In this document: positions 3,001 through 58,300 of the stretch, piece by piece
Layout of the letters: every line of letters starts with the position of its first letter
Position numbering within the stretch: the first letter of the stretch is position 1
DNA from: a virus
DNA: 64,000 nt
Strand: one strand, 5' to 3'
Virus record (IMG/VR): IMGVR_UViG_3300032032_000001
Coordinates: 64,001-128,000 of that record
Notes under the pieces: generated by a model
The model's database searches: none
Seen by the model: only the letters and a program-made list of their open reading frames with translations
Told to the model about the DNA's origin: nothing
Program-made: the position numbers and the translations under genes

Positions 3001-3689
3001 GCGGAGTCGTTGGTGGGATAGATCGCATTAGCCAACTACTCAAGATGCCAGCAACTCTCCCCAACGCTGCTGTTCTCTCCCCAGCAACCGCGACTGTTTC
3101 CAGTATCAAAGAAAGCCCCGTGGGTGGTTTTGATATGACAATCGGGAATGAGGATATTTACGTCCCTGCCGGGAGAACCCTGAAGGTAACTAAGGGCTCC
3201 AAGGTGAAGAAGGGGCAGCAGATTTCCAGTGGTGTAATTGACCCACGGGATCTTCTATCTAAAACCAACGTAGATACCGTACAGGCATACATCGCTGATG
3301 AGATTAATAGGGTTTATAAAGCAGAGGGCATTAAGCGCCGAAACATCGAAGTGGTGACTAAGGCGATAACTAATCTCGGCAGAGTAACTAACCCTGGCGG
3401 GTCTGATTTTATCAAAAATGACTACATCTCTATATCACACGCTAATGCCCTAAATAGATCTGGGAAGCTGAAGGAGCCGTTGGTGGTTGAGCCAACGCTT
3501 CGTGGAATTGAGACCCTTCCCCTAGACCAAACAACGGACTGGCTGGCAAGGCTTCAATACCGGAAGTTAAAGGAGACATTTATTAGGGCCGCCAACGAGG
3601 GCTGGGAATCTGATATACATGGAGTGCACCCAACCCCAGGCATCGCCTATTCGGCAGAGTTTGGGAAAGGTAAGGAGGGCCCCTACTGA
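3..3689 (+). CDS. rpoBC: Multisubunit DNA-directed RNA polymerase, beta C-terminus fused to beta' (5'-truncated by the window edge)
   Basis: Frame is open from nt 3. Beta C-terminal motifs YTLKLMHQVDKKLRAR and AQRFGELGLYAMLAHGA run in frame into beta' motifs KPEKGGLFD, VVPVLPPVFRP, RDPVLHK, catalytic NADFDGD, GARKGL, C-terminal Zn site (DDC...C...CSKCYG) and trigger loop GTQLSMKTFHTGG. Confidence 0.95.
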   Translation, partial: TVKTTSGDTKEITVKEHTRELGYQERVKQILAEEGVSETTELFDPETGKSLGEVLVGQHYTLKLMHQVDKKLRARAHGYGHDYDANLVPKGGGESGAAQRFGELGLYAMLAHGATSNIREALTYKSDKAQDEVWTAVQTGAILPAPKSSFAYEKFLAYMQGLGLNVEKEGNGLVVSPLTEKQIKEASNGEIKDGSKVIRGKDLKPEKGGLFDETVTGGPGGKHWAHMVLGMSMPNPMFEKSVRSLLGITGKQYDGIVDGSLGFDENGDVVPAADGIQTGPEALTRALGSINVDKDLASAKKDIKTARRNNLDKLNKKIKYLLMLKKNGLSPKEAYTTSVVPVLPPVFRPITAMEGGDLNIDGTNMLYRDIAILSQKLKESTGVLPEEAISALRGDLYDAVDALMGTSTPSESATMTDGQARPPGILTILSGRQSPKQSFFHKRILDRKQDISMRSVIVPNMDLHLDEIGLPRKGAMKIYRPFVVKELVRMGYTPLRAREEIEKKTPLADRALEVAVKKRPVFFKRDPVLHKFGIMAFRPKLHDESSIHIHPLVTGGFNADFDGDTMAVFLPVSQESIDEAEKLLPSKNLFNPATGKVMYQPTLEGQLGLFLLTQMGKNTKKSFGSEKEAIASAKAGDTAMSDVVSVGGKKTTAGRLLFNNALPSKVRSDKLLTDPDMVMGKKNLQAVLRGIATKSPAEFQVAVDKIKDLGFGHAYNIGFSFNLGDFDAMRDLREKKMKGAHAKEAVIRKQERMKLISPEAAEKKIIDLYTEVTQDLSTEAKKILDKKGNKLRTMEKAGVKPAWAQLQQMLIGPMLLENAKGRVIPVPVDRSYSEGLRSSDYWVASSGARKGLIEKVQSVQKPGALNKQLANTMMSYIVTADDCGTTKGIALDAADSDLVDRFTAKPISAKGLRVSANTALTPALVSRIKSAKVSKIVVKSPLKCEAKKGLCSKCYGLQDNGLPISKGTNIGVIAGTALGERGTQLSMKTFHTGGVAGSSGGVVGGIDRISQLLKMPATLPNAAVLSPATATVSSIKESPVGGFDMTIGNEDIYVPAGRTLKVTKGSKVKKGQQISSGVIDPRDLLSKTNVDTVQAYIADEINRVYKAEGIKRRNIEVVTKAITNLGRVTNPGGSDFIKNDYISISHANALNRSGKLKEPLVVEPTLRGIETLPLDQTTDWLARLQYRKLKETFIRAANEGWESDIHGVHPTPGIAYSAEFGKGKEGPY

Positions 3690-5155
3690 TGGATGATCTA
3701 ACCAGCGCAAACCCGGAGGGGTCGTTTGAGGACTCATATACAAAAACAGGAGCCCAATCGGACGGGCCCGCAAGCATTCAGCTCGCTCAGATAACTAACG
3801 TTAACCCGGAAGAGTACACTGTCGATGTGATGACGACCTACACGCATAAGGCGTTGGTTGACCTCCCGTTCGCTTCGCCGTTATGCCACCGAGATCATCG
3901 CGGCGGCATGTACGCTATGCCGGAGAGAGACGCGTACTGTTACGTGTGCCAGTGCCAGGATGGGACATCTTTTGTCTTAGGGTTTATTAACAACCCCGTT
4001 ACCATAGTGCCTGAAGAGTACGCAGCCGTTGAGGGCTCAACAGCGGAACTGATAACGGAAACAGCAGACAAGGGACCAAGCTTTAAGGGCGCTCGTGGGC
4101 ACCTGGAGCCTGGGGATATTTTCCTGGGCACCCTGGACGGTAACAGCGTTATCGTTCGAAGGGGTGGGATGGTCCAAATCGGGTCTACGTCATTAGCGCA
4201 ACGCATCTATCTGCCGGTCGAGAACGTCATAAGAGATTACTTTCAGAGATACCAAGCAGTAAGCCCTGTAGGGGAGATCGACTGGGGGCACGCTATTTTA
4301 GTGGAGGGCGAGACGCCCACGCAACAGGGCGGGTATCTCGCTAAAGACCTAAAAGACGACAATATCCCCAGCGAGGTCTTAGAGGTCGCTGAGAAGACCC
4401 CTGTTCTTGTTAAGTACAATATTAAAGACCTGTGCCAAGAAGATGTCACTGAAGGCAAGTACACAGTTGAGCTTAGGGTTGGAAGGCTTACGGCGGAACA
4501 GCTTGATCCCGAAGAAGACCCTGAGCATGTGTTCGGTCAGGCGGACCACAAGGCGTCCTCGGACCCGAGAGTAGAAAAACCTGTCAAGGCGTCTTCTGGT
4601 GACAAGGGCATTATAAAAGAAGAAAAGGGCGTTCTAAGTTTCACGATATACCAGCATGATGATGGTGTAGATGACAAGGAACGCGTTAGGTACGTATTCC
4701 AACTTAACAGGGATGGTGATAATCTAATCTTTACGCGTGGAAATATTCACGCCGAAGTATCCCAGACCGTATATGCAAATGTCCGTGAAGGCATTAAGAT
4801 CGTGTACGGAGACAAGGGCGGTAGCAAGGAAACCAAGGAAAACAAACAGTCCATAATTGAATTATTACAGGATAATGATTTCAAGGCGTTTGTTAAGAAT
4901 ATGGTTATAGAGTGCATGGAGGGCTATCACCTAAAGTCCCCCAAAGAGGTTTACATCGAAGGAGAGGCTGAGGTGCAGCTAGGTAAAAAAGGACAAGGCG
5001 GCGCGGATCAATCGGTAGTTCTTTTGGACGATCTGGCAACTTGGCTTACCACAAGCTTTTCCTGCATGACCGCTTGGGGCCCCAGTGGACCTGTTATCAC
5101 ACCACCCACACAGTCGGACATTGCGTCAGCCAGTGTGAAGGCAAAGAAGGGGTAG
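3689..5155 (+). CDS. Putative baseplate hub/central spike protein (Gp5/GpV-like)
   Basis: OB-fold-like N-terminus (AQITNVNPEEYTVDV), beta-strand-rich C-terminus ending in a TAWGPSGP spike-tip-like segment; translationally coupled to the RNAP gene (TGATG). Confidence 0.55.
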   Translation: MDDLTSANPEGSFEDSYTKTGAQSDGPASIQLAQITNVNPEEYTVDVMTTYTHKALVDLPFASPLCHRDHRGGMYAMPERDAYCYVCQCQDGTSFVLGFINNPVTIVPEEYAAVEGSTAELITETADKGPSFKGARGHLEPGDIFLGTLDGNSVIVRRGGMVQIGSTSLAQRIYLPVENVIRDYFQRYQAVSPVGEIDWGHAILVEGETPTQQGGYLAKDLKDDNIPSEVLEVAEKTPVLVKYNIKDLCQEDVTEGKYTVELRVGRLTAEQLDPEEDPEHVFGQADHKASSDPRVEKPVKASSGDKGIIKEEKGVLSFTIYQHDDGVDDKERVRYVFQLNRDGDNLIFTRGNIHAEVSQTVYANVREGIKIVYGDKGGSKETKENKQSIIELLQDNDFKAFVKNMVIECMEGYHLKSPKEVYIEGEAEVQLGKKGQGGADQSVVLLDDLATWLTTSFSCMTAWGPSGPVITPPTQSDIASASVKAKKG

Positions 5156-5159
5156 TATT

Positions 5160-5630
5160 ATGCCATTAGCTGGCGCTTTTAATGATATGAAACAAGCTAT
5201 ATTGTCCTTTGACCTGTCGCCCGGATTTCATGCCGGTAATGAGTGGGCAAAGGTAGCGGAAGCTTATTTCCAGAACGGAACCAACCCTGTCTGGGCTGAC
5301 CTAAGCGCGGGCAAGGCCCAGTTTGCCGCGACAATGGGCCAGGAGATTCCTGCTGACCCGATGCCCGCTGCTGCTATTATTTTCGCTAACGCGTGGGCGG
5401 CTTTTGCGGGAACCTGTGTAGCGAGCTGCTCACCAGGACTCCCCGGATTTATCCCGCCCATAGCGCCGCCACCAAACCCGCCCACTTTTACGTGGAGTGC
5501 TCCGGCAGACACTGTGGACGCGCAGGTGACACAACTTTTGGCAGATTTAACCACGTGGGTTAATGCTGGAACCGTGGCGGTACCGCCTCCGGGACCAGGA
5601 AGTCCTATTCCTACGCCCCCATGGACATAG
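5160..5630 (+). CDS. Hypothetical Pro/Ala-rich virion protein, probably baseplate-associated
   Basis: 156-aa ORF directly after the spike-like gene. Confidence 0.5.
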   Translation: MPLAGAFNDMKQAILSFDLSPGFHAGNEWAKVAEAYFQNGTNPVWADLSAGKAQFAATMGQEIPADPMPAAAIIFANAWAAFAGTCVASCSPGLPGFIPPIAPPPNPPTFTWSAPADTVDAQVTQLLADLTTWVNAGTVAVPPPGPGSPIPTPPWT

Positions 5631-36561: not shown

Positions 36562-37405
36562 TGTAATACCTCCAGTATTTAGTGAAATTTTTCTCAATTT
36601 GTTCCGCTGCTTCAATATGCCCAGGACCAAGCGAGACCCCGTCGGGATCCCTCAAATATGACCCAGCCTGTTCGAGTATATTACTTGATAATAATACCCG
36701 CATTAACTCAAACCCACGGGAGAACCCCCGCTGGCTGAACAAGAACCCGCACGATTTACTGTTGGGTGGGCACACCATCGATCTGAATATATTGAATCTA
36801 ACTCTTAGGTAGGCGAGAGACCCGTATTCATTTCTGGTCTTCTCGCGCTCGGTCCTTATCCGGACAGAGCATAATCTGTTGATTGTTCCCTCAAGCGCTG
36901 AAGAAGGCTTAGGGACTAAATCTCGTACAGGAACCCTTAACTGGTTTACGACCAGGATTAAGGCTCCTCTTTTTAACGCTTCCTCTCTTAGAAAACTAAG
37001 GCCGTGGTATGCAGCCTTCCTCTCGGCGAAGGGGACACGTTCATCAACACCTAAGCGCTGATCGCACAGCGGCTCTGTGGAGGACAGGGAGTCTATAGTT
37101 ATCACCATGGCCCCCTCATCAAGAAGGGTGTAAGCCGATTCTATAGCAGACTCCATGCTGTTTGGGATGACGGCTATTAGGTCCTTTGGACCAGCAGCCT
37201 GTATATACCCAGAGCTAGGGAAAGCCTCCGTATGGATAAGGGCGGTCGGGAGGCCCCCAACGGAGGCCTCCCTCATCACACTGAAACACAACGTAGATTT
37301 ACCACTAGCGTCCTCCCCGATAACTTCACAGATACCGGGTGGTATTCCTCCAAGGAGCGCTTCATCTAGTTGATAGATGCCAGTGCGATGCCGCCCATAA
37401 CTCAA
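36554..37405 (-). CDS. Divergent RecA-family ATPase
   Basis: TGIYQLDEALLGGIPPG, GEDASGKST Walker A, ITIDSL Walker B, VVNQLR. Confidence 0.8.
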   Translation of the reverse strand: MSYGRHRTGIYQLDEALLGGIPPGICEVIGEDASGKSTLCFSVMREASVGGLPTALIHTEAFPSSGYIQAAGPKDLIAVIPNSMESAIESAYTLLDEGAMVITIDSLSSTEPLCDQRLGVDERVPFAERKAAYHGLSFLREEALKRGALILVVNQLRVPVRDLVPKPSSALEGTINRLCSVRIRTEREKTRNEYGSLAYLRVRFNIFRSMVCPPNSKSCGFLFSQRGFSRGFELMRVLLSSNILEQAGSYLRDPDGVSLGPGHIEAAEQIEKNFTKYWRYYNG

Positions 37406-39006
37406 CTGTCGCCCTCTGCTTTTCGCAGTTCGTCCCAGCCGCTACCCTTGACACTTGTCACCTTAGCGGTGCGCCGTGATCTCTTGGGCTTCTTCTGCTT
37501 TGCTTGGGTTTCTTGAACTGTGTTAGCCAAGAGCGCTCTACCGTTTGCCCACTTGCGTAAGGCTTCGATCTTAGTACCCATTGTTGTTGACAGCGGGACT
37601 GTATTGGAAGCTGCGGTGACCATGTCATCACACTCCAGGTCTCTATTTTCAGCGAAAGCCTTGTACATACCGTCCACAACAACCTGTTCAATTTCGGCAC
37701 CCGTGAAGGAGTTGGTCTCCTCCGCCAGACGCTTAACGTCAAACTTGTCTGAGTCTCTACCCAGTCTGGATATGTGGATCTTGAACACTTCCTCGCGATC
37801 AACCTGTGAGGGTAGGTCTACGAAAAACAATTCGTCAAACCGGCCCTTTCGAAGCATCTCTGGCGGAAGCGCAGATACGTCATTAGCGGTAGCCACTACG
37901 AAGACCTGAGATGTCTTCTCAGACATCCAAGACAAGAAACTACCAAACACACGAGCAGATGTTCCACTGTCGTGTGACCCAGAAGCCGAACCAAAACCCT
38001 TTTCGATCTCATCGATCCAAAGGACACATGGTGAAATAGCTTCAGCGGTCTTGATAGCTTTCCTGAAATTGGCTTCAGACTGTCCAACATACTGGCCAAA
38101 CAAGGCACCTACATCCATACGGAGTACGGGCATTTGCCAAGCCGAACCAATACACTTTGCAGTTAGTGATTTCCCTGTACCAGGGATACCAACAATGAGA
38201 ACGCCTTTGGGGTGCGGGAGACCAAACTCCCTAGCCTCTTCAGAAAAAGCTCGACCACGCTGGTCCAACCATGTCTTAAGAGTATTCAAACCACCAACAT
38301 CACCCATCGCCCGATCAACTTCATGGTACTGAAGCACGCCAGACTTGCGGATAATGTGCTTCTTCTCATCCAAAACAACGCGAGGCTCTATGCCCTCACA
38401 CTTTGCTAAGGATTTCGAGAAGACGTTCTCTACTTCTGTAAGAGTTAAGCCTATAGCGGCTGAGCAACCCTCTTTGAGCATGTTATCTTTCTCTTCATCG
38501 GTTTTAGAATCCCCAAAGAAGTCTTCAATAATATGCCTGTTCCAGCGCTCTAGTTCAGATTCATCAGGTAGATCAAAATCTACAACAGACATAATCTTCT
38601 CAAGCCGTGGGGGAACCTTTAGTTCGCTATCAATTATTACCACGGTAATACCGGGGTTCATTGTATTGGCTAGATCCCTAAGCTTCCTCTGCACTGGATA
38701 ACATGGACCCTCGTTGAGCCAGTAGCCGAAGTCCTTAAGAAGGAATACAGCTGACTGCTCATGCTCCCCGATTTTTTCGAGGATATCTAAAGGTGTCTCA
38801 ACATCTGGGAAATGCTCGTTCCCACAGTATGCTCCCTCAGTGAAGCTCCACGTCCAAAGTGACGCGTTTGCTTCAGAGGATACGTTCTTTCTCTCAACGA
38901 CACTTGCCAGTGCCTGCGCAACCCGATGCTCTTCGTGGCTAACCACATAGACCACCGGGTGCGCGGCTCTGACAAGAACGTCGAGTTCTTCGACGCTACG
39001 GTTCAC
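37402..39006 (-). CDS. Ycf46-type AAA+ ATPase
   Basis: DVGGLNTLKTWL, GIPGTGKS, LWIDEIEK, ATAN...LPPEMLRKGRFDELFFVDLP, FTGAEIEQ; degenerate N-terminal AAA domain. Confidence 0.9.
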   Translation of the reverse strand: MNRSVEELDVLVRAAHPVVYVVSHEEHRVAQALASVVERKNVSSEANASLWTWSFTEGAYCGNEHFPDVETPLDILEKIGEHEQSAVFLLKDFGYWLNEGPCYPVQRKLRDLANTMNPGITVVIIDSELKVPPRLEKIMSVVDFDLPDESELERWNRHIIEDFFGDSKTDEEKDNMLKEGCSAAIGLTLTEVENVFSKSLAKCEGIEPRVVLDEKKHIIRKSGVLQYHEVDRAMGDVGGLNTLKTWLDQRGRAFSEEAREFGLPHPKGVLIVGIPGTGKSLTAKCIGSAWQMPVLRMDVGALFGQYVGQSEANFRKAIKTAEAISPCVLWIDEIEKGFGSASGSHDSGTSARVFGSFLSWMSEKTSQVFVVATANDVSALPPEMLRKGRFDELFFVDLPSQVDREEVFKIHISRLGRDSDKFDVKRLAEETNSFTGAEIEQVVVDGMYKAFAENRDLECDDMVTAASNTVPLSTTMGTKIEALRKWANGRALLANTVQETQAKQKKPKRSRRTAKVTSVKGSGWDELRKAEGDS

Positions 39007-39899
39007 TATTCACCCATCCGAATGCGGCGTTTCCGCTTGACGGTTGGCTTCTTAGTTTCCTTTGAGACCTCAACCGCATCGGTTGCGTCAATAATATGCA
39101 GAAGGTCCTCTGTCTCAATTTCACAGAAGTACCAACGCACAACTCGGTCAACCGCTTCGCGGTACTCCTTGTCGAGGTCAGCATTATCCTTTGCAAGGAA
39201 CGTTCTAAGCTCTTCCATCTCCTTCTTGGAGCGGTAGGTCTTAGCTCGCTTACGCTGCTTCTCCTTGGGGACCTCATCAGCACCCTGGCCAAGCATGACC
39301 TCTAGGGCCTCATCCTGTCCCTTCTCGTTGGGATTACCGTCCTCGCGGACGATCTTCGACAACTGCTTCGCCTGGGTCATTGTGATTCGACCGTGACGAA
39401 GCGCCTCAAAGGATACAGTGCTCAAGCCTTTGTAGGTTGCGCAAAGAACGCTAACCTGTGGCTGTGAGATATTCAGCATACTGGCTACAGACTGTTGATT
39501 CCCAACGCGGTCATTAAGTCGATAAATCGACTCACAACGATCCGCGAAGTTCAGCGACTTCCTCTGTAGGTTTTCTGCAATGTTTAAGGCCAAGGCATCC
39601 TCAAGAGATCCTTCATGGACACCGCATTGGATGGTATCAAAGAAACCATCACCATCGTTTCCACGAGAGTCTCTCTCCTCAAGGATTGCTTGAACCCTAC
39701 GATAACCAGCGATCAGAAGAACTCTCTCATTGCCCTTGTCATCCTGAAGGATGTGGACAATAGGGGGGTTCATCAATCCATCGGAAATGATGGAAGATCG
39801 TAGGTCTCTGGTATCGCCCACATCAGAACGGCTGTTCTTGAATCCGAGCGTATTTCTCTCAATGTCTTCAATTTTGAATGACTTTTGCGCAAGTTGCAT
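39006..39899 (-). CDS. ParB/Spo0J-like protein
   Basis: LRSSIISDGLMNPPIV, LIAGYRRVQA, AENLQRKSL, HTH QQSVASMLNISQPQVS; GGAGG RBS upstream of ATG 39899. Confidence 0.85.
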   Translation of the reverse strand: MQLAQKSFKIEDIERNTLGFKNSRSDVGDTRDLRSSIISDGLMNPPIVHILQDDKGNERVLLIAGYRRVQAILEERDSRGNDGDGFFDTIQCGVHEGSLEDALALNIAENLQRKSLNFADRCESIYRLNDRVGNQQSVASMLNISQPQVSVLCATYKGLSTVSFEALRHGRITMTQAKQLSKIVREDGNPNEKGQDEALEVMLGQGADEVPKEKQRKRAKTYRSKKEMEELRTFLAKDNADLDKEYREAVDRVVRWYFCEIETEDLLHIIDATDAVEVSKETKKPTVKRKRRIRMGE

Positions 39900-40009
39900 T
39901 AGTTTCCTCCTATCTGCGTTGATAAGCGCACACACGTTACGAAAGTTTCCGGGCTGTAGTAGTCGGGATAAACCAGCCCATACTTATATCCACGTTTATT
40001 ATTAATAAA

Positions 40010-40123
40010 TGACAATGTATACTCTGTCGGTGACAATTTAAAAGCTGTCATCAATTCTCCAGTTAAAACCAGCACTTATAGTAGTTCTGGTGTTTTTCGG
40101 GAGTGACAAGATTATTATTGTCA
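40010..40123. repeat. Three TGACAA-N8-(T/C)TGTC(A/G) palindromic boxes (40010, 40031, 40104)
   Basis: Read directly: tgacaa-tgtatact-ctgtcg; tgacaa-tttaaaag-ctgtca; tgacaa-gattatta-ttgtca. Confidence 0.8.
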
Positions 40124-40130
40124 CCCTTAC

Positions 40131-41207
40131 CTATGTTTTCTTCCTCGGGGAAATGTTTCTTTTCCTCCGCTGATTAACACTCTCCTTAGCGACTGCGCCG
40201 CTAGAACCTGTATATAACTTTAGGGCAGCAGGATCTCCCTCCACTCTTACAGAGTCTGGGGTTAAGATTATCCTTATCCCCGTTAGGTTGATCACTAAAT
40301 CCTCCCCGTACCCTGAGCATTTTGTCAAGGCTGGGAACCACTGCCTAAGTTGTCCAATTTCATATTGCAGGGTGCCTACGTGTGCAGGCTTAGTTGTTGG
40401 TGACTCTTGTTTAGAGTCTACCCTGAATCTATGTATCGCCTCTCTTTCAAAGCGTGTGTAGTTTATACCTGTCAGTCTGGATACAGTCTGACTCACTCTC
40501 TCTGCTTCAGAGTTAGCTCTTACTGAGTCAGTCTTTCTACCGACTTCTTTTTCCAGAGCTAACGTCAGTCTCACAAGATCAGCACTTCTTCTCTTAATGT
40601 CCTCTGCTTGTTCTCTGAACCATGCAAATTCCTTAAGAGCATCATCTAGCTTATCCTGAGTATCTAACTTGTAGTCAGTAGTTCCACTACATCTTTCTTC
40701 TCTCATATCGTGTATTTTACGAATTAATTCTTCCGATTCCAATACAAGTGTTTCCTGATCAGAAAGTAACTTTCCTAAGTCTACTTCGTCTTTTTCAACA
40801 GTACCACCTAACATCTCTACTCTAGAATTAAATATAGAGAAGTCAGTTTTACTGAGAGAAAAGTTCTGTAGGCAAGATCTAGGTTTTGCTACCAGTACTT
40901 GAGGGATACTTCTACCTATATAGGGTCTTTGACTTCTGTAAGAAGCTAACCCTAAAACAAGTGTAGCTGTTTCAGCATCCATTACTCTGTAAGGCATGGA
41001 TACTTGGACATGGTCGTTCTCAGTTAATTTCCAGAGATACACATGTCCCTTCTCTATAGGGGTAAGGTCATCATCGTAAAAAGCTATCTCTTCAGGATCA
41101 GCTGGGTCACAGAATAAGTTCTGCGAGTACTCAGAGGTACGTTTTGTGATGAGACCTTTGATTAGTATAGGTGGGTTTGCCCTATCGTTCACAAACCGTA
41201 ATTCCAT
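40131..41207 (-). CDS. Hypothetical coiled-coil protein, AT-richer than its surroundings
   Basis: 358-aa ORF with AAGGAG RBS, bracketed by palindromic boxes. Confidence 0.75.
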   Translation of the reverse strand: MELRFVNDRANPPILIKGLITKRTSEYSQNLFCDPADPEEIAFYDDDLTPIEKGHVYLWKLTENDHVQVSMPYRVMDAETATLVLGLASYRSQRPYIGRSIPQVLVAKPRSCLQNFSLSKTDFSIFNSRVEMLGGTVEKDEVDLGKLLSDQETLVLESEELIRKIHDMREERCSGTTDYKLDTQDKLDDALKEFAWFREQAEDIKRRSADLVRLTLALEKEVGRKTDSVRANSEAERVSQTVSRLTGINYTRFEREAIHRFRVDSKQESPTTKPAHVGTLQYEIGQLRQWFPALTKCSGYGEDLVINLTGIRIILTPDSVRVEGDPAALKLYTGSSGAVAKESVNQRRKRNISPRKKT

Positions 41208-41244
41208 ATTGTCTCCTTATGCAGTTCAAAGATCTAAGAGGGGG

Positions 41245-41358
41245 TGACAAGTTAATGGTTGTCAGACCCCTTATACCACAAATCGTTCCTAAGTAGGCGT
41301 AGATACTACGTTTCTTGTGGCAAGTTAAAGGTTGTCAGTGACAGGTTTCCACTTGTCA
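41245..41358. repeat. Three TG(A/G)CA(A/G)-N8-TTGTCA palindromic boxes (41245, 41318, 41339)
   Basis: tgacaa-gttaatgg-ttgtca; tggcaa-gttaaagg-ttgtca; tgacag-gtttccac-ttgtca. Confidence 0.8.
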
Positions 41359-41453
41359 CCTCATTAGTAAAGAATAAAAAGTTGCCCGTCAGTAGAGGAG
41401 GCAGCCACCCCTTTGGATGACTGCCCCCTCTACTTTGGACGGGAGGCTGTTGA

Positions 41454-42212
41454 CTACTTCTGAGCGGCTGCCTGTCGTCCCTTACGCGCCTTACGAACAC
41501 GCTTGAACTTCAGTCCAGCAGACTTCATCAGGTGGACGTGAGCCTCGGTTAGAGCCGAAGTCAAAGCGATCTCATCGCTCTCACCATCCCATTCACCCTC
41601 AGTCGCCTTAGCGTACGTGGGCTGCACGTACCTTGAGATCGCCTTAGGCACATCCACTTCGAACCTCAGACCGCGAGATGCAGCCAAGTTGACAACGAAC
41701 GCCTTGACGCCAAGAAGGGCGTACAGGTTCCGATCCTCAGGGGTGATATCCCCCTCAGACACGGACAGTCCGGTGTCACGCTCAAGCGTGGACTTCAACT
41801 CCTGCCAGCGGTCTAGCCCCTGAAGGATGATTGCGCCGGAGATTGCCTTGCTAACGAAGTTCTTTCGACCTTCGAACAGCTGCTCTCTCGTAGGCTTCAC
41901 AGTGCCCTTACCCCAACCACCTTGAACGATAAAGTTCAAAGCAGCAGTTCCCGTAAAGAAACCGTTGGTCTCCAGGGTTAGTGCAAACTTGCAACGCTTT
42001 CCTCCAGAAGACACAGGGGTGCCAACATAGAGGATAGAACCATCCTCACGGGTCTGCTTCATCAGATCCGTAGAGGTTGTGGCCCCAGACGGTGCCTCGT
42101 GCTCGACAGTGATAACGTCGGGCGCTCGTTGTGGGTCAACCAGACCGCACATAGGGAGTCCTGTGGACCAGGACTTTTTCTTGTCAAAACCGCTCATAAT
42201 AGCCTCCTTCAC
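41454..42212 (-). CDS. Hypothetical protein with a basic C-terminus
   Basis: 252-aa ORF followed by a hairpin at about 41392-41433. Confidence 0.7.
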   Translation of the reverse strand: MKEAIMSGFDKKKSWSTGLPMCGLVDPQRAPDVITVEHEAPSGATTSTDLMKQTREDGSILYVGTPVSSGGKRCKFALTLETNGFFTGTAALNFIVQGGWGKGTVKPTREQLFEGRKNFVSKAISGAIILQGLDRWQELKSTLERDTGLSVSEGDITPEDRNLYALLGVKAFVVNLAASRGLRFEVDVPKAISRYVQPTYAKATEGEWDGESDEIALTSALTEAHVHLMKSAGLKFKRVRKARKGRQAAAQK

Positions 42213-42239: not shown

Positions 42240-42917
42240 CTAATTGGCTACAGTTGTGATGACTTGATTCATAAAGATATTAGCGAAATCAATTTCCGCA
42301 GAATCAAAACGAATCTCCTCACCGATAATACTCTTTGCAAGCAAGGAGCAGATGATCGAAGATAAGCCGTACGCACAGAAGACCGTCGCCTTCTCAGTAC
42401 AGGGGAGCGCTACCGCTTCATCATCGGAGAACAAGCTTGCCTCGTACTTTTCGATAGACTTACGGTTAGACTTGTCTACAAAGAAGACTTGCCCAAACCG
42501 TGCGGCCATCCGGCCATCGATAAAGTATCTGGAAGATGTACTCATGAGGAAAGATTCAAATATGGCCTTTCGAGAAGCCATATTATCCACAGCAGAAACT
42601 ACGTACACTTCGTCAAACTTGTGTCCGTCCTCTACCCTTTTGTCCTCAGCAATGATTTCAGCACCAGTGCCTTCTGTAAGACGCTTAGCTATTGCTTCAC
42701 ATTTCTTATACCCGATTTCAGGTATGAAATAGCCTTGATTGGCTAGGTTATGCATCTCCACCGTGTCATCATCGAAGACCCGAATTTTGCGCACACCCAT
42801 CTTAGTCATAGCCTCCGCAGTATGGGAGCCAATAGCCCCCACACCCACAACAGCTACCGTAGTATTATTAATGAGTTCGTCAGGAATGATTCCACTCTGC
42901 CTTGTTGTATCAATCAT
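42240..42917 (-). CDS. E1-like (ThiF/MoeB family) ubiquitin-activating enzyme
   Basis: VVGVGAIGS, DDDTVEMHNLANQ, SAVDNMASRK, IDGRM, candidate catalytic Cys in LPCTEK. Confidence 0.9.
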   Translation of the reverse strand: MIDTTRQSGIIPDELINNTTVAVVGVGAIGSHTAEAMTKMGVRKIRVFDDDTVEMHNLANQGYFIPEIGYKKCEAIAKRLTEGTGAEIIAEDKRVEDGHKFDEVYVVSAVDNMASRKAIFESFLMSTSSRYFIDGRMAARFGQVFFVDKSNRKSIEKYEASLFSDDEAVALPCTEKATVFCAYGLSSIICSLLAKSIIGEEIRFDSAEIDFANIFMNQVITTVAN

Positions 42918-56809: not shown

Positions 56810-58300
56810 TTGGAAGAAAATATACCAGAGTCGTGGATATCCCTTGAGAGGGAGTATGGCGACCGGCTGCTCAGGCAGTTACGGAACAGGGAGTGGCGTG
56901 CTGTACACAAGCGGTACGGTGATCGTTTTGGGATGGACTACGAAGAGTTAGTCGCCTGGGGAAAATGGGTTAGGTTCAGTAGAGCGGAAACCGAAGAGAT
57001 GACGCCCCCTCCTACCCCAGAAGACGCGGGTGAGCCTGAACAAGCATCATATGTCAGCGACAGCCGATACTGGTTTGACTCTGATCGGGATGTTTATATC
57101 ACTTTCATACCCGGCGTACCCCAACCCCTAGAAGTCCCAGGCGCTGTCCACAGAGACATGCTCCGAGCCTACTCAAACTTTGACGGCAAGCCCGCTACAA
57201 TCAACGAGATATGTAGAGAGTTTAAAATGCCACGCTCGTGGTTTGAGAAGTACAAGCGTATCCACGGATGGACAAAAGACCACGAACCATTCACCCCAGA
57301 TGAGATGATGGAGCGAGACGAGGGCGACCTCCTAAATGAGGCCCTACAGCTCAGGCGGGCGAACTTCTATCGCAAGTTCGAACAGGAGAAATGGAAAGAG
57401 GTCCAAGTAGAGGCGAAGAAGTGGAGAGAGTTTGAGGACCATGTATTCAGGAAGATCCTGGATGTCATTGGTGACCGCAAGCCCCCCAAGCCCGCAAAGA
57501 TAAAAATAAAACCAGCGAGGGCTCCATACGCTGCCATTGTTGGGCTCTCCGATTTCCATTGGGGCAAGTATTCCGATGATGAGAACTGGGAGTTTTACGA
57601 CCGAAAGATTGCTAGAAAAAGACTGTTCTCCTGCACAGAGGATGTTCTATCCAGACTGATCCAATTTGGGACACCAGAAAAGTTCATCGTCCCTATAGGC
57701 AGTGATTTTCTTAACATCGATAACGACCTAAAGAACACAACAAGGGGGACACCCCAAGACTCCGATGGGAACTTTTATGACATCATCGAGACTGCATGTG
57801 TTTTAATGGAGGAGTGGATTGAGACTCTAAGGCAAATAGCGCCTGTGCAACTCGTACTAATGAGTGGCAACCACGACCGAGCCATGGGGTATGTCTTGCT
57901 TCTGTACCTGAGCGCCTTCTACAAAAACGCCGCTGACGTGACAGTGGTCAAAGACAAACAACCCAGACAATACGTTGCCTACGGAAAGAACCTGATCGGT
58001 CTTGTCCACGGCGATGGTGTATCAAAAACCAAAGATTTAGCCGGTCATATGGCCAGGGAAGCAGCAAAAGATTGGGCGAAATGTCCATACCGTACAATCT
58101 ATACGGGTCATTTGCATTATGAAAAAACGGAGACCGATGTAGCATATGGAGTAACGCGCCGCCAACTTCCTTCCCTGTCAGGCCCCGACAGGTGGCACGC
58201 ACGATCTGGCTATGTTGGGGCCCCTAAGAGCCTCCCCTTGTATTTACACGATAAAGAGCGTGGCCTAGTTGCTGTTATCCATGGCCCACCAACTGAGTAA
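56810..58300 (+). CDS. Calcineurin-like metallophosphoesterase with N-terminal extension
   Basis: SDFHWG, GSDFLN, SGNHD, VHGD, TGHLH motifs. Confidence 0.85.
   Translation: MEENIPESWISLEREYGDRLLRQLRNREWRAVHKRYGDRFGMDYEELVAWGKWVRFSRAETEEMTPPPTPEDAGEPEQASYVSDSRYWFDSDRDVYITFIPGVPQPLEVPGAVHRDMLRAYSNFDGKPATINEICREFKMPRSWFEKYKRIHGWTKDHEPFTPDEMMERDEGDLLNEALQLRRANFYRKFEQEKWKEVQVEAKKWREFEDHVFRKILDVIGDRKPPKPAKIKIKPARAPYAAIVGLSDFHWGKYSDDENWEFYDRKIARKRLFSCTEDVLSRLIQFGTPEKFIVPIGSDFLNIDNDLKNTTRGTPQDSDGNFYDIIETACVLMEEWIETLRQIAPVQLVLMSGNHDRAMGYVLLLYLSAFYKNAADVTVVKDKQPRQYVAYGKNLIGLVHGDGVSKTKDLAGHMAREAAKDWAKCPYRTIYTGHLHYEKTETDVAYGVTRRQLPSLSGPDRWHARSGYVGAPKSLPLYLHDKERGLVAVIHGPPTE

What the first reader, a model, noticed from the sequence alone, without database searches (positions are those of the whole stretch)
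40010..41358. Mirror-symmetric array of six TGACAA-N8-TTGTCA palindromes bracketing one gene next to ParB
Seen: boxes start at 40010, 40031, 40104 and at 41245, 41318, 41339. Spacings are 21 then 73 bp on the left and 73 then 21 bp on the right, an exact mirror image around ORF 40131-41207, with AT-rich outer flanks. The ParB-like gene starts about 110 bp away, and boxes lie next to two putative promoters (39983-39993 and 41270-41282). Inference: a parS-like centromere, a replication origin, a DNA-looping operator, or the ends of a recombining/mobile cassette. The repeats loosely recall the TGAC...TGTC repeats at Tn7-like/CAST ends, but no transposase or TGT/ACA termini are visible.
Basis: partly seen in the sequence, partly recalled or inferred. 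Interest (0 to 1): 0.75.

Follow-up and report, generated by a model that had tools for sequence, protein, structure and literature searches.

The report
Mirrored binding-site arms around phage gene
Six 20-base DNA palindromes, three on each side in mirror image, enclose one unusually AT-rich unknown gene just upstream of a partner-less ParB gene in a clade of ~180-kb uncultured marine phages; they are almost certainly protein docking sites that control or fold this gene block, in a layout not described before.

Summary
The six boxes sit exactly where stated, with spacings 21/73 and 73/21. They are the only such sites in the 148-kb phage genome. The same layout recurs in all 12 distinct related loci found, down to 35% identity of the enclosed protein X.

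New here:
- Each arm also carries a conserved asymmetric A/T-rich element (IHF-site-like), so an arm reads [box][box]-accessory element-[box].
- The upstream arm wraps an invariant extended -10 promoter of X.
- X has the lowest GC3 of 94 long ORFs, and this holds in every relative.
- The neighbour is a canonical HTH ParB (GxRR and ENLQR motifs). Complete relatives have no ParA, HU/IHF or tyrosine integrase match.
- The arms show no shared crossover core and no concerted evolution. Synteny and orientation are fixed.

Best reading: a two-armed operator that loops the X gene and controls the X and parB promoters. ParB is the likeliest binder, X the alternative. The binder and the function of X remain untested. 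Classical partition, an origin, or a mobile or invertible cassette are less supported.

The scan found this array before in two relatives (e1-5881899, e1-5770729), with similar verdicts. It is a new variant of a known kind.

The parts
41339..41358 (.). Box U1, the outermost box of the upstream arm (upstream relative to gene X, which reads on the minus strand)
   Evidence: conserved in position in 12 loci
41318..41337 (.). Box U2, 21 bp (two helical turns) from U1
41290..41317 (-). Upstream accessory element, asymmetric. Consensus c..aAA...tAGtt.tT.c....acTTa, including GCTACTTAC at about -30 of the X promoter. Candidate bend or accessory-factor (IHF-like) site
   Evidence: the TT is invariant in 24 of 24 arms; no dyad symmetry
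41270..41278 (-). Extended -10 of the X promoter (TGGTATAAG), 5 bp upstream of box U3
   Evidence: one of only five copies in the 148-kb genome
41245..41264 (.). Box U3, the proximal box. It covers the predicted transcription start of X and lies 73 bp (7 turns) from U2
40131..41207 (-). Gene X (358 aa, P0001), an orphan family. N-terminal alpha/beta domain 1-141, three-helix spectrin-like bundle 142-265, C-terminal beta-rich domain, and a conserved basic tail motif. Lowest GC3 in the genome
40104..40123 (.). Box D1, the proximal box of the downstream arm, 8 bp after the X stop codon
40051..40078 (+). Downstream accessory element, the mirror copy of the upstream one, adjacent to D2
40031..40050 (.). 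Box D2, 73 bp from D1
40010..40029 (.). Box D3, 21 bp from D2. It abuts the -35 position of the parB promoter-like element
39983..39993 (-). -10-like element upstream of parB (GTGGATATAAG). Relatives have GATATTAC, GATATTGC or TGGTATAAG at the same place
39006..39911 (-). Orphan ParB (301 aa from the ATG at 39911) with GYRR (box II), ENLQR (box III) and an HTH (ISQPQVSV). Its stop overlaps the start of the AAA+ gene
41391..41434 (-). Terminator-like hairpin of the upstream gene P3. It makes X a separate transcription unit
   Evidence: (I4: 20-nt arms, 85% complementary, 4-nt loop), followed by a T-run on the minus strand

Best explanation
The six boxes, plus two accessory elements, form a two-armed nucleoprotein operator dedicated to the X-parB gene block.

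Each 114-bp arm reads [palindrome][palindrome]-asymmetric A/T-rich accessory (bend) element-[palindrome]. All three palindromes lie on one face of the helix (21 bp = 2 turns, 73 bp = 7 turns). A phage-encoded dimeric DNA-binding protein occupies the palindromes. The most likely binder is the orphan HTH ParB encoded immediately downstream (my odds about 55%). Protein X itself is about 25%, and another factor about 20%.

In the upstream arm, the strong extended -10 promoter of X sits between the accessory element and the proximal box, and that box covers the transcription start. Occupancy and folding of the arm should therefore shut off X. In the downstream arm, the double box abuts the -35 position of the parB promoter-like element.

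Because the arms are mirror images, dimers on U3/D1, U2/D2 and U1/D3 are equidistant from the centre of X. They could pair in register and close the AT-rich 1.1-kb X gene into a hairpin-like loop. Alternatively, if ParB acts as a CTP clamp, the arms could corral sliding clamps over X.

Shown: the sites, their layout, their conservation, the promoter overlaps, the ParB family features and the AT-rich gene body. Inferred: who binds, the looping, and the direction of regulation.
For: - Locus-exclusive sites.
- Layout kept in 12 loci down to 35% X identity, with spacers free to vary.
- Half-site profile T G A C A R n n W n, with C4 and A5 in 143 of 144 half-sites and W9 in 140 of 144. One-sided changes far outnumber compensatory ones, so the sites are read by a protein and are not RNA stems.
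- The mirror symmetry extends to an asymmetric 28-nt element next to the inner double box in 24 of 24 arms.
- P_X has an invariant extended -10 placed 5 bp before U3. A -10-like element lies 17-25 bp beyond D3.
- ParB is canonical. GYRR aligns with GERR, ENLQR aligns with ENLQRE, and the HTH aligns to Spo0J 1vz0 (E 1e-8). Orthologues pass the Pfam ParB_N cut-off.
- ParB orthologues in IMG/VR occur only on the contigs that also carry X.
- The double-box pattern searched across IMG/VR returns the X loci plus unrelated chance or tandem-repeat hits.
- X has GC3 0.363, against 0.536 +/- 0.042 for 94 long ORFs (rank 1). GC3 is low in all 12 loci, with a trough at mid-gene. This points to a constraint on the enclosed DNA.
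Against: - No binding was tested.
- The conserved half-site cores are 14 bp apart, unlike the contiguous 16-bp parS of chromosomal ParBs (my knowledge of parS).
- Box flanks drift between lineages: TGACAR; TGACAAC-N6-GTTGTCA; ACAGAT-N4-ATCTGT; CAAC-N6-GTTG. The ParB recognition helix SQPQVSV stays almost invariant. The L013 ParB has no change at columns that are invariant in the TGACA-type loci.
- X has no recognisable DNA-binding domain and is mildly acidic overall.
- The two promoters sit differently within their arms, so the mirror symmetry is not explained by promoter logic alone.
- The distance between proximal boxes (1128-1155 bp) is not phase-conserved.
- The IHF-like assignment rests on a partial consensus match only, and the host is unknown.
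Confidence: 0.5

Rival explanations
1. X is itself the binder: an autoregulated repressor (lambda cI-like) or initiator-like protein whose gene is flanked by its own sites. ParB is then only a neighbour or partner.
For: - The arrays bracket X exactly, and U3 covers the transcription start of X.
- Lambda places two sets of three operators around cI (PMC5880393, PMC2685085). P1 places iteron sets incC and incA around repA, next to parAB (PMC6906374).
- X evolves fast (35-80% identity against 45-84% for ParB), as do the box flanks.
- One X column (L187K) separates all three loci with deviant boxes.
- X residues 55-142 weakly resemble the nucleic-acid-binding N-domains of XPB and T4 UvsW (Z 5.1-5.6).
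Against: - No HTH, RHH or winged-helix signal appears in Pfam, PHROGs, NCBIfam, PDB sequence profiles, Foldseek or VIA.
- The domains are neutral to acidic except for the tail.
- The L187K signal is a single column and is confounded by shared descent.
Confidence: 0.2
2. The arms are a true partition centromere (P1 parS-like, bent by a host factor). It would serve plasmid-like or carrier-state maintenance, with a host ParA or X as the motor or adaptor.
For: - A canonical ParB sits next to clustered palindromes.
- P1 parS also combines ParB boxes on both sides of a central IHF site (PMC2910045).
- X sits in the gene slot that the NTPase holds in par operons.
- No integrase is present, so any lysogeny would have to be extrachromosomal.
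Against: - There is no ParA of the AAA_31 or CbiA type in five genomes, four of them complete.
- The ParB N-terminus (LGFKNSR) does not fit the ParA-binding motif (L/F/I)G(K/R)G(L/F/I) defined in PMC12704722.
- X has no NTPase motif and no invariant acidic or basic residue.
- No X homologue was found in 185,579 prokaryotic genomes with the patterns used, nor in plasmids.
Confidence: 0.12
3. The locus is a replication origin or replication-control element. The phased palindromes would act like iterons. The promoter plus the AT-rich gene body would act as the unwinding or R-loop region, as in T4 oriF/oriG or lambda ori inside gene O.
For: - 21-bp phasing is typical of iterons (my knowledge).
- X has the lowest GC3 in the genome, with a mid-gene trough conserved in 12 loci.
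- A strong promoter fires into this region.
- The layout parallels P1 incC-repA-incA-par (PMC6906374).
- A recombinase-like gene lies nearby.
Against: - Cumulative GC skew shows no inflection at 104-105 kb; skew follows gene orientation.
- There are only 2+1 sites per arm.
- No winged-helix Rep fold and no Rep family hit was found.
- No DnaA-box cluster is conserved; only a 7-of-9 match overlaps the parB -10.
Confidence: 0.1
4. The locus is a mobile or invertible cassette. The arms would be terminal inverted repeats with TG...CA tips and subterminal binding sites, as at IS10, Mu or Tn7 ends, and X would be the recombinase.
For: - The anatomy resembles an insertion sequence: 1.35 kb, one ORF, a promoter inside one end, about 114-bp inverted arms, an IHF-like site, and base composition unlike the flanks.
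Against: - Synteny and orientation are identical in 12 loci, and divergence parallels that of the neighbours.
- No target-site duplication is visible.
- Mirror partners have unrelated N8 spacers. Arms are less alike within a genome (0.12-0.50) than orthologous arms between close genomes (0.25-0.81).
- There is one copy per genome.
- No transposase or recombinase signature was found, and only G54 is invariant in the family.
- Low GC3 persists at saturating divergence, so it is maintained by selection and is not a sign of recent import.
Confidence: 0.03

Closest known systems
Bacteriophage lambda immunity region: OL1-3 ... cI-rexAB ... OR3-1, joined by CI octamer/dodecamer looping (PMC2685085, PMC5880393)
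   Same: Two sets of three dyad-symmetric operators lie in mirror order around a gene. The operators overlap promoters. The enclosed kilobase-scale DNA can be looped by paired dimers.
   Different: Spacing here is 21 + 73 bp with an extra asymmetric element in the gap, not three adjacent sites. The enclosed protein has no HTH, and no repressor family was detected. The neighbour is a ParB. The loop is 1.1 kb, against 2.3 kb in lambda. The enclosed gene is selectively AT-rich. No integrase or other lysogeny marker was found.
P1 parS centromere with ParB A/B boxes around a central IHF site (PMC2910045)
   Same: A ParB-family protein has sites on both sides of an asymmetric bend-type element. One side is single and the other multiple.
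   Different: There are two such arms, in inverted orientation around a gene. There is a single box type, a 20-bp palindrome. No ParA is present. The ParB is of the chromosomal Spo0J/Noc-like type, not the P1 type Ia. IHF binding is not shown.
KorB-OB/KorA on plasmid RK2: a ParB-family CTP clamp acting as a transcriptional repressor (PMC11790492). Also orphan ParBs in general (PMC12704722)
   Same: A ParB-fold HTH protein without a partition role could use palindromic sites at or near promoters to silence genes. The orphan status matches.
   Different: KorB has 12 sites dispersed over the plasmid and works with IncC (a ParA) and KorA. Here all the sites are concentrated in one mirror-symmetric locus.
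Iteron-flanked initiator genes next to par operons: P1 oriR-incC-repA-incA-parAB-parS (PMC6906374) and F incB-repE-incC-sopABC (my knowledge)
   Same: A gene is flanked by two arrays of phased binding sites. Its promoter lies inside the upstream array. Partition genes follow.
   Different: Iterons are direct repeats bound by winged-helix Rep monomers. Here the sites are palindromes in mirrored arms, and no Rep fold was found.
Lambda cosB (R3-I1-R2-R1) and SPP1 pacL/pacR terminase-binding arrays (my knowledge)
   Same: One site, then an IHF bend, then two adjacent sites.
   Different: The only terminase-like match is weak (E 0.006) and lies about 28 kb away. The array is duplicated in mirror image.

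Membership tests
ParABS partition system | ParB with the CTP-binding N-domain (GxRR, ENLQR) and an HTH | tested here: met
   GYRR and ENLQR align to GERR and ENLQRE of Spo0J 1vz0 (E 1e-8). TIGR00180 scores E 2e-9 but below its cut-off. Orthologues pass the Pfam PF02195 cut-off.
ParABS partition system | A cognate ParA (Walker-type ATPase) encoded with ParB | tested here: not met
   No PF13614 match in G000. No PF01656 match in five genomes, four of them complete. The gene in the ParA slot, X, has no NTPase motif.
ParABS partition system | An N-terminal ParA-binding motif (L/F/I)G(K/R)G(L/F/I) in ParB (definition from PMC12704722) | tested here: not met
   The invariant N-terminal peptide is N-x-L/D-G-F-x-N-x-R (LGFKNSR in the window).
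ParABS partition system | parS palindromes bound by ParB | not testable with these tools
   Six locus-exclusive palindromes lie next to parB. Binding is untested, and the half-site geometry differs from the 16-bp parS.
Lambda-type operator arrays with a looping repressor | Mirrored triplets of dyad-symmetric sites that flank a gene and overlap promoters | tested here: met
Lambda-type operator arrays with a looping repressor | The enclosed gene encodes an HTH repressor of the CI/Cro type | tested here: inconclusive
   X has no Pfam, PHROG, NCBIfam or PDB-profile hit and no clear fold match. A missing match does not exclude DNA binding.
Iteron replicon (Rep_3 type) | A winged-helix Rep initiator and direct-repeat iterons beside an AT-rich DUE and DnaA boxes | tested here: inconclusive
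   The sites are palindromes, not direct repeats. The X model shows an alpha/beta N-domain, a helical bundle and a beta-rich C-domain, with no Rep-family hit. GC skew shows no signal. Origin activity cannot be tested here.
Insertion sequence / transposon / invertible segment | A recombinase gene, identical crossover cores or termini, several contexts or copies, and target-site duplication | tested here: not met
   (details under rival explanations).
IHF-bent nucleoprotein site | A match to WATCARNNNNTTR with an upstream A/T tract, plus an IHF/HU protein available | tested here: inconclusive
   The consensus keeps W..C......TTR and an A-tract, and single arms are 1-3 mismatches from the E. coli consensus. 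The phages encode no PF00216 protein. The host is unknown.

The most novel reading that the evidence does not exclude
X, the orphan ParB (translationally coupled to a Ycf46-type AAA+ ATPase) and the two mirrored arms form a previously undescribed ParA-independent DNA-organising module. In it the enclosed gene body is itself a functional part. It is kept AT-rich by selection at synonymous sites so that it can be looped, melted or coated. Examples would be a phage centromere-like or origin-like structure, or a ParB clamp 'corral' that times early gene expression.
Probability: 0.2. Interest if true: 0.85.

Novelty: new variant of a known kind. Interest (0 to 1): 0.62.

Why it matters
Orphan ParB proteins are common on phages and other mobile elements, but their DNA targets and roles are mostly unknown (PMC12704722). 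This clade offers a compact test case:
- one canonical HTH ParB with no ParA;
- six locus-exclusive sites in a rigid, helically phased, mirror-symmetric layout with an accessory element;
- two promoters;
- an enclosed orphan gene whose DNA composition is itself under selection.

The system could show how a ParB-fold protein, or a new DNA-binding fold in X, builds a looped or clamped regulatory domain. It also assigns a context to a family of about 100 uncharacterised protein clusters.

Tried and rejected
- **Function of X.** Pfam, PHROGs and NCBIfam gave nothing. PDB sequence profiles gave only coiled-coil noise. Foldseek against PDB and BFVD gave nothing at E <= 1e-3. VIA-wide matched only the spectrin-like bundle (Z about 12, within the range common for helical bundles) for the full model, and reached Z <= 6.0 for the N-domain model of pLDDT 97. 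The ESM Atlas gave nothing usable.
- **X elsewhere.** No X was found in cultured phages or plasmids, nor in prokaryotic genomes.
- **Context of distant X homologues.** Broad alignments had no searchable motif. Single distant members were absent from IMG/VR. So it is unknown whether distant X homologues also pair with ParB and with boxes.
- **An 'empty site' or a ParB without X.** ParB orthologues occur only on X-bearing contigs.
- **Covariation to name the binder.** Inconclusive.
- **RNA-hairpin reading of the boxes.** Rejected, because one-sided changes dominate.
- **Mirrored antisense promoter in the downstream arm.** Not present.
- **Dyad symmetry of the accessory element.** Not present.
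- **pac/cos site.** The only terminase-like match is weak and about 28 kb away.
- **P3, the upstream 252-aa basic protein.** No family or PDB hit.

Full report
**Setting**

The window is bases 64001-128000 of a 148,364-bp IMG/VR virus record that CheckV rates 83% complete. The finding lies in a long block of minus-strand genes. In transcription order the block reads:
- a ubiquitin-like conjugation operon ending in a ThiF/E1 gene (42240-42917);
- an unknown basic 252-aa protein, P3 (41454-42212), followed by a hairpin terminator;
- the boxed gene X (40131-41207);
- a ParB-like gene (39006-39911);
- an overlapping AAA+ ATPase (37402-39006);
- a RecA/UvsX-like gene.

**Observation**

All six boxes are at the stated coordinates, with 0-2 mismatches to TGACAA-N8-TTGTCA and spacings of 21/73 and 73/21. 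Chance is excluded. The window has 10 matches against 2.8 +/- 1.7 in shuffles. At up to 1 mismatch, the five sites in the whole genome are all here. In three complete relatives of 173-181 kb, exact TGACA-N10-TGTCA occurs only at the homologous locus. The 87%-complete G002 has one extra site, and the complete G005 has no exact match.

**Conservation**

Protein X has 7 relatives in the 90% cluster database and about 100 clusters at 50% identity. I retrieved 12 distinct loci from IMG/VR and JGI/ENA metagenomes. All are syntenic: E1, P3, X, ParB, AAA+, RecA-like, with X in the same orientation.

Every locus has two boxes 21-22 bp apart, then a third box 70-74 bp further on. The mirror image follows the gene. 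This holds although X falls to 35% identity and the N8 spacers are unrelated.

The half-site profile from 144 half-sites is T G A C A R n n W n. C4 and A5 are present in 143 of 144 half-sites, and position 9 is A/T in 140 of 144. Departures are mostly one-sided rather than compensatory. The boxes are therefore read as DNA by a dimeric protein and are not RNA stems.

Lineages differ in the flanks. The variants are TGACAR, TGACAAC-N6-GTTGTCA, ACAGAT-N4-ATCTGT and CAAC-N6-GTTG. This favours a dedicated phage-encoded reader over a fixed host factor.

**New anatomy**

Reading from the inner double box towards the single box, all 24 arms share a further asymmetric element, c..aAA...tAGtt.tT.c....acTTa. 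Its TT is invariant and it has no dyad symmetry. The element lies in the middle of the 53-bp gap and resembles an A-tract plus a partial WATCARNNNNTTR core. It is a candidate bend or accessory-factor site. This is a lead, not a demonstration.

Each arm is thus [box][box]-accessory element-[box], and the arms are inverted copies of each other.

In the upstream arm an extended -10, TGGTATAAG, lies 5 bp before the proximal box, so that box covers the transcription start. The sequence is invariant in most loci and is one of only five copies in the genome. In the downstream arm a -10-like element lies 17-25 bp beyond the outer box, ahead of parB.

**The enclosed gene**

X has no family assignment. 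AlphaFold models show:
- an alpha/beta N-domain (pLDDT 97 when modelled alone);
- a three-helix spectrin-like bundle;
- a small beta-rich C-domain;
- a disordered tail ending in a conserved basic motif, RRRRxI or SRxRFSxI.

No convincing structural relative was found. Across 62 diverse members only one glycine is invariant, so X is unlikely to be an enzyme.

X has the lowest third-position GC of all 94 long ORFs in the genome: 0.363 against 0.536 +/- 0.042. The same deficit is seen in all 12 loci (GC3 0.33-0.42, while most neighbouring genes have 0.45-0.67). The trough falls in mid-gene. At this divergence the deficit cannot be unameliorated foreign DNA. It indicates selection on the DNA or on the codons of the enclosed segment.

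**The neighbour**

The ParB is canonical. GYRR and ENLQR align with GERR and ENLQRE of Spo0J, and the HTH follows. Orthologues pass the Pfam ParB_N cut-off.

It is an orphan. No ParA-type ATPase, no HU/IHF and no tyrosine integrase was found in five genomes, four of them complete. Its invariant N-terminal peptide does not fit the ParA-binding motif. ParB orthologues in IMG/VR occur only together with X.

**Interpretation**

The data best fit a two-armed operator that controls P_X and P_parB. Because partner boxes are equidistant from the gene centre, it can synapse in register and loop the AT-rich gene. ParB is the most plausible reader because it carries the only recognisable sequence-specific DNA-binding domain in the block.

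Two points count against ParB. The conserved half-site cores are 14 bp apart. The ParB recognition helix is nearly invariant while the box flanks drift. X therefore remains a serious alternative, following the lambda cI and P1 repA logic (PMC5880393, PMC6906374).

Classical partition fails the ParA test. An origin has no positive evidence beyond phasing and AT-richness.

A mobile or invertible cassette is contradicted on four counts:
- synteny and orientation are fixed;
- spacers differ between mirror partners;
- the arms show no concerted evolution (within-genome arm identity 0.12-0.50, against 0.25-0.81 for orthologous arms of close genomes);
- no recombinase is present.

**Relation to earlier notes**

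The same array was already reported and followed up in two relatives (e1-5881899, e1-5770729), with concordant verdicts and the lambda comparison. This report adds:
- the accessory element;
- the promoter geometry;
- the half-site profile and its drift between lineages;
- the genome-wide GC3 outlier status of X;
- the ParB motif and partner tests;
- the evidence against recombination.

**Limits**

Nothing about binding, looping or function was tested experimentally.

Noticed in passing
window 39006 (parB stop / AAA+ start): The ParB stop codon and the start codon of the Ycf46-type AAA+ ATPase overlap by one base. This suggests translational coupling, so ParB may work with this AAA+ protein rather than with a ParA.
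   Followed up: no
L010 ~5230-5260, L013 ~3180-3210, L039 ~1440-1470, L041 ~3740-3760 (between box D3 and parB): A conserved leader motif, GCTCGGCTAYTGCGGTA (TGCTCGG in L041), lies downstream of the parB -10-like element in the more distant relatives. It is absent from the window's own clade. It could be an RNA leader or a further protein site.
   Followed up: no
window 40131-40200, 39006-39040, 41454-41510 (C-termini of X, ParB and P3): Three consecutive proteins end in basic tails: X ...QRRKRNISPRKKT, ParB ...KRKRRIRMGE, P3 ...KFKRVRKARKGR. The X tail motif (RRRRxI / SRxRFSxI) is kept across the wide family, and R348 is nearly invariant.
   Followed up: partly
genome G000 positions 57227(-), 105278(-), 117287(+), 119986(+), 138822(-): TGGTATAAG occurs only five times in 148 kb, each time preceded by a T-rich stretch. 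This is probably a small class of strong extended -10 (early?) promoters, and P_X is one of them.
   Followed up: partly
L034:8200-8270: An unrelated high-GC viral contig carries a long nested perfect palindrome (...CTGACACGGACTGACATGTCAGTGACACGTCAGTCCGTGTCAG...). It lies inside or next to an ORF with an excisionase-like '...WYIPPDAV' peptide.
   Followed up: no
L019:4370-4430: An unrelated AT-rich viral contig has two adjacent TGACAT-N8-ATGTCA-like palindromes 21 bp apart in an intergenic region. No X homologue is present there.
   Followed up: no
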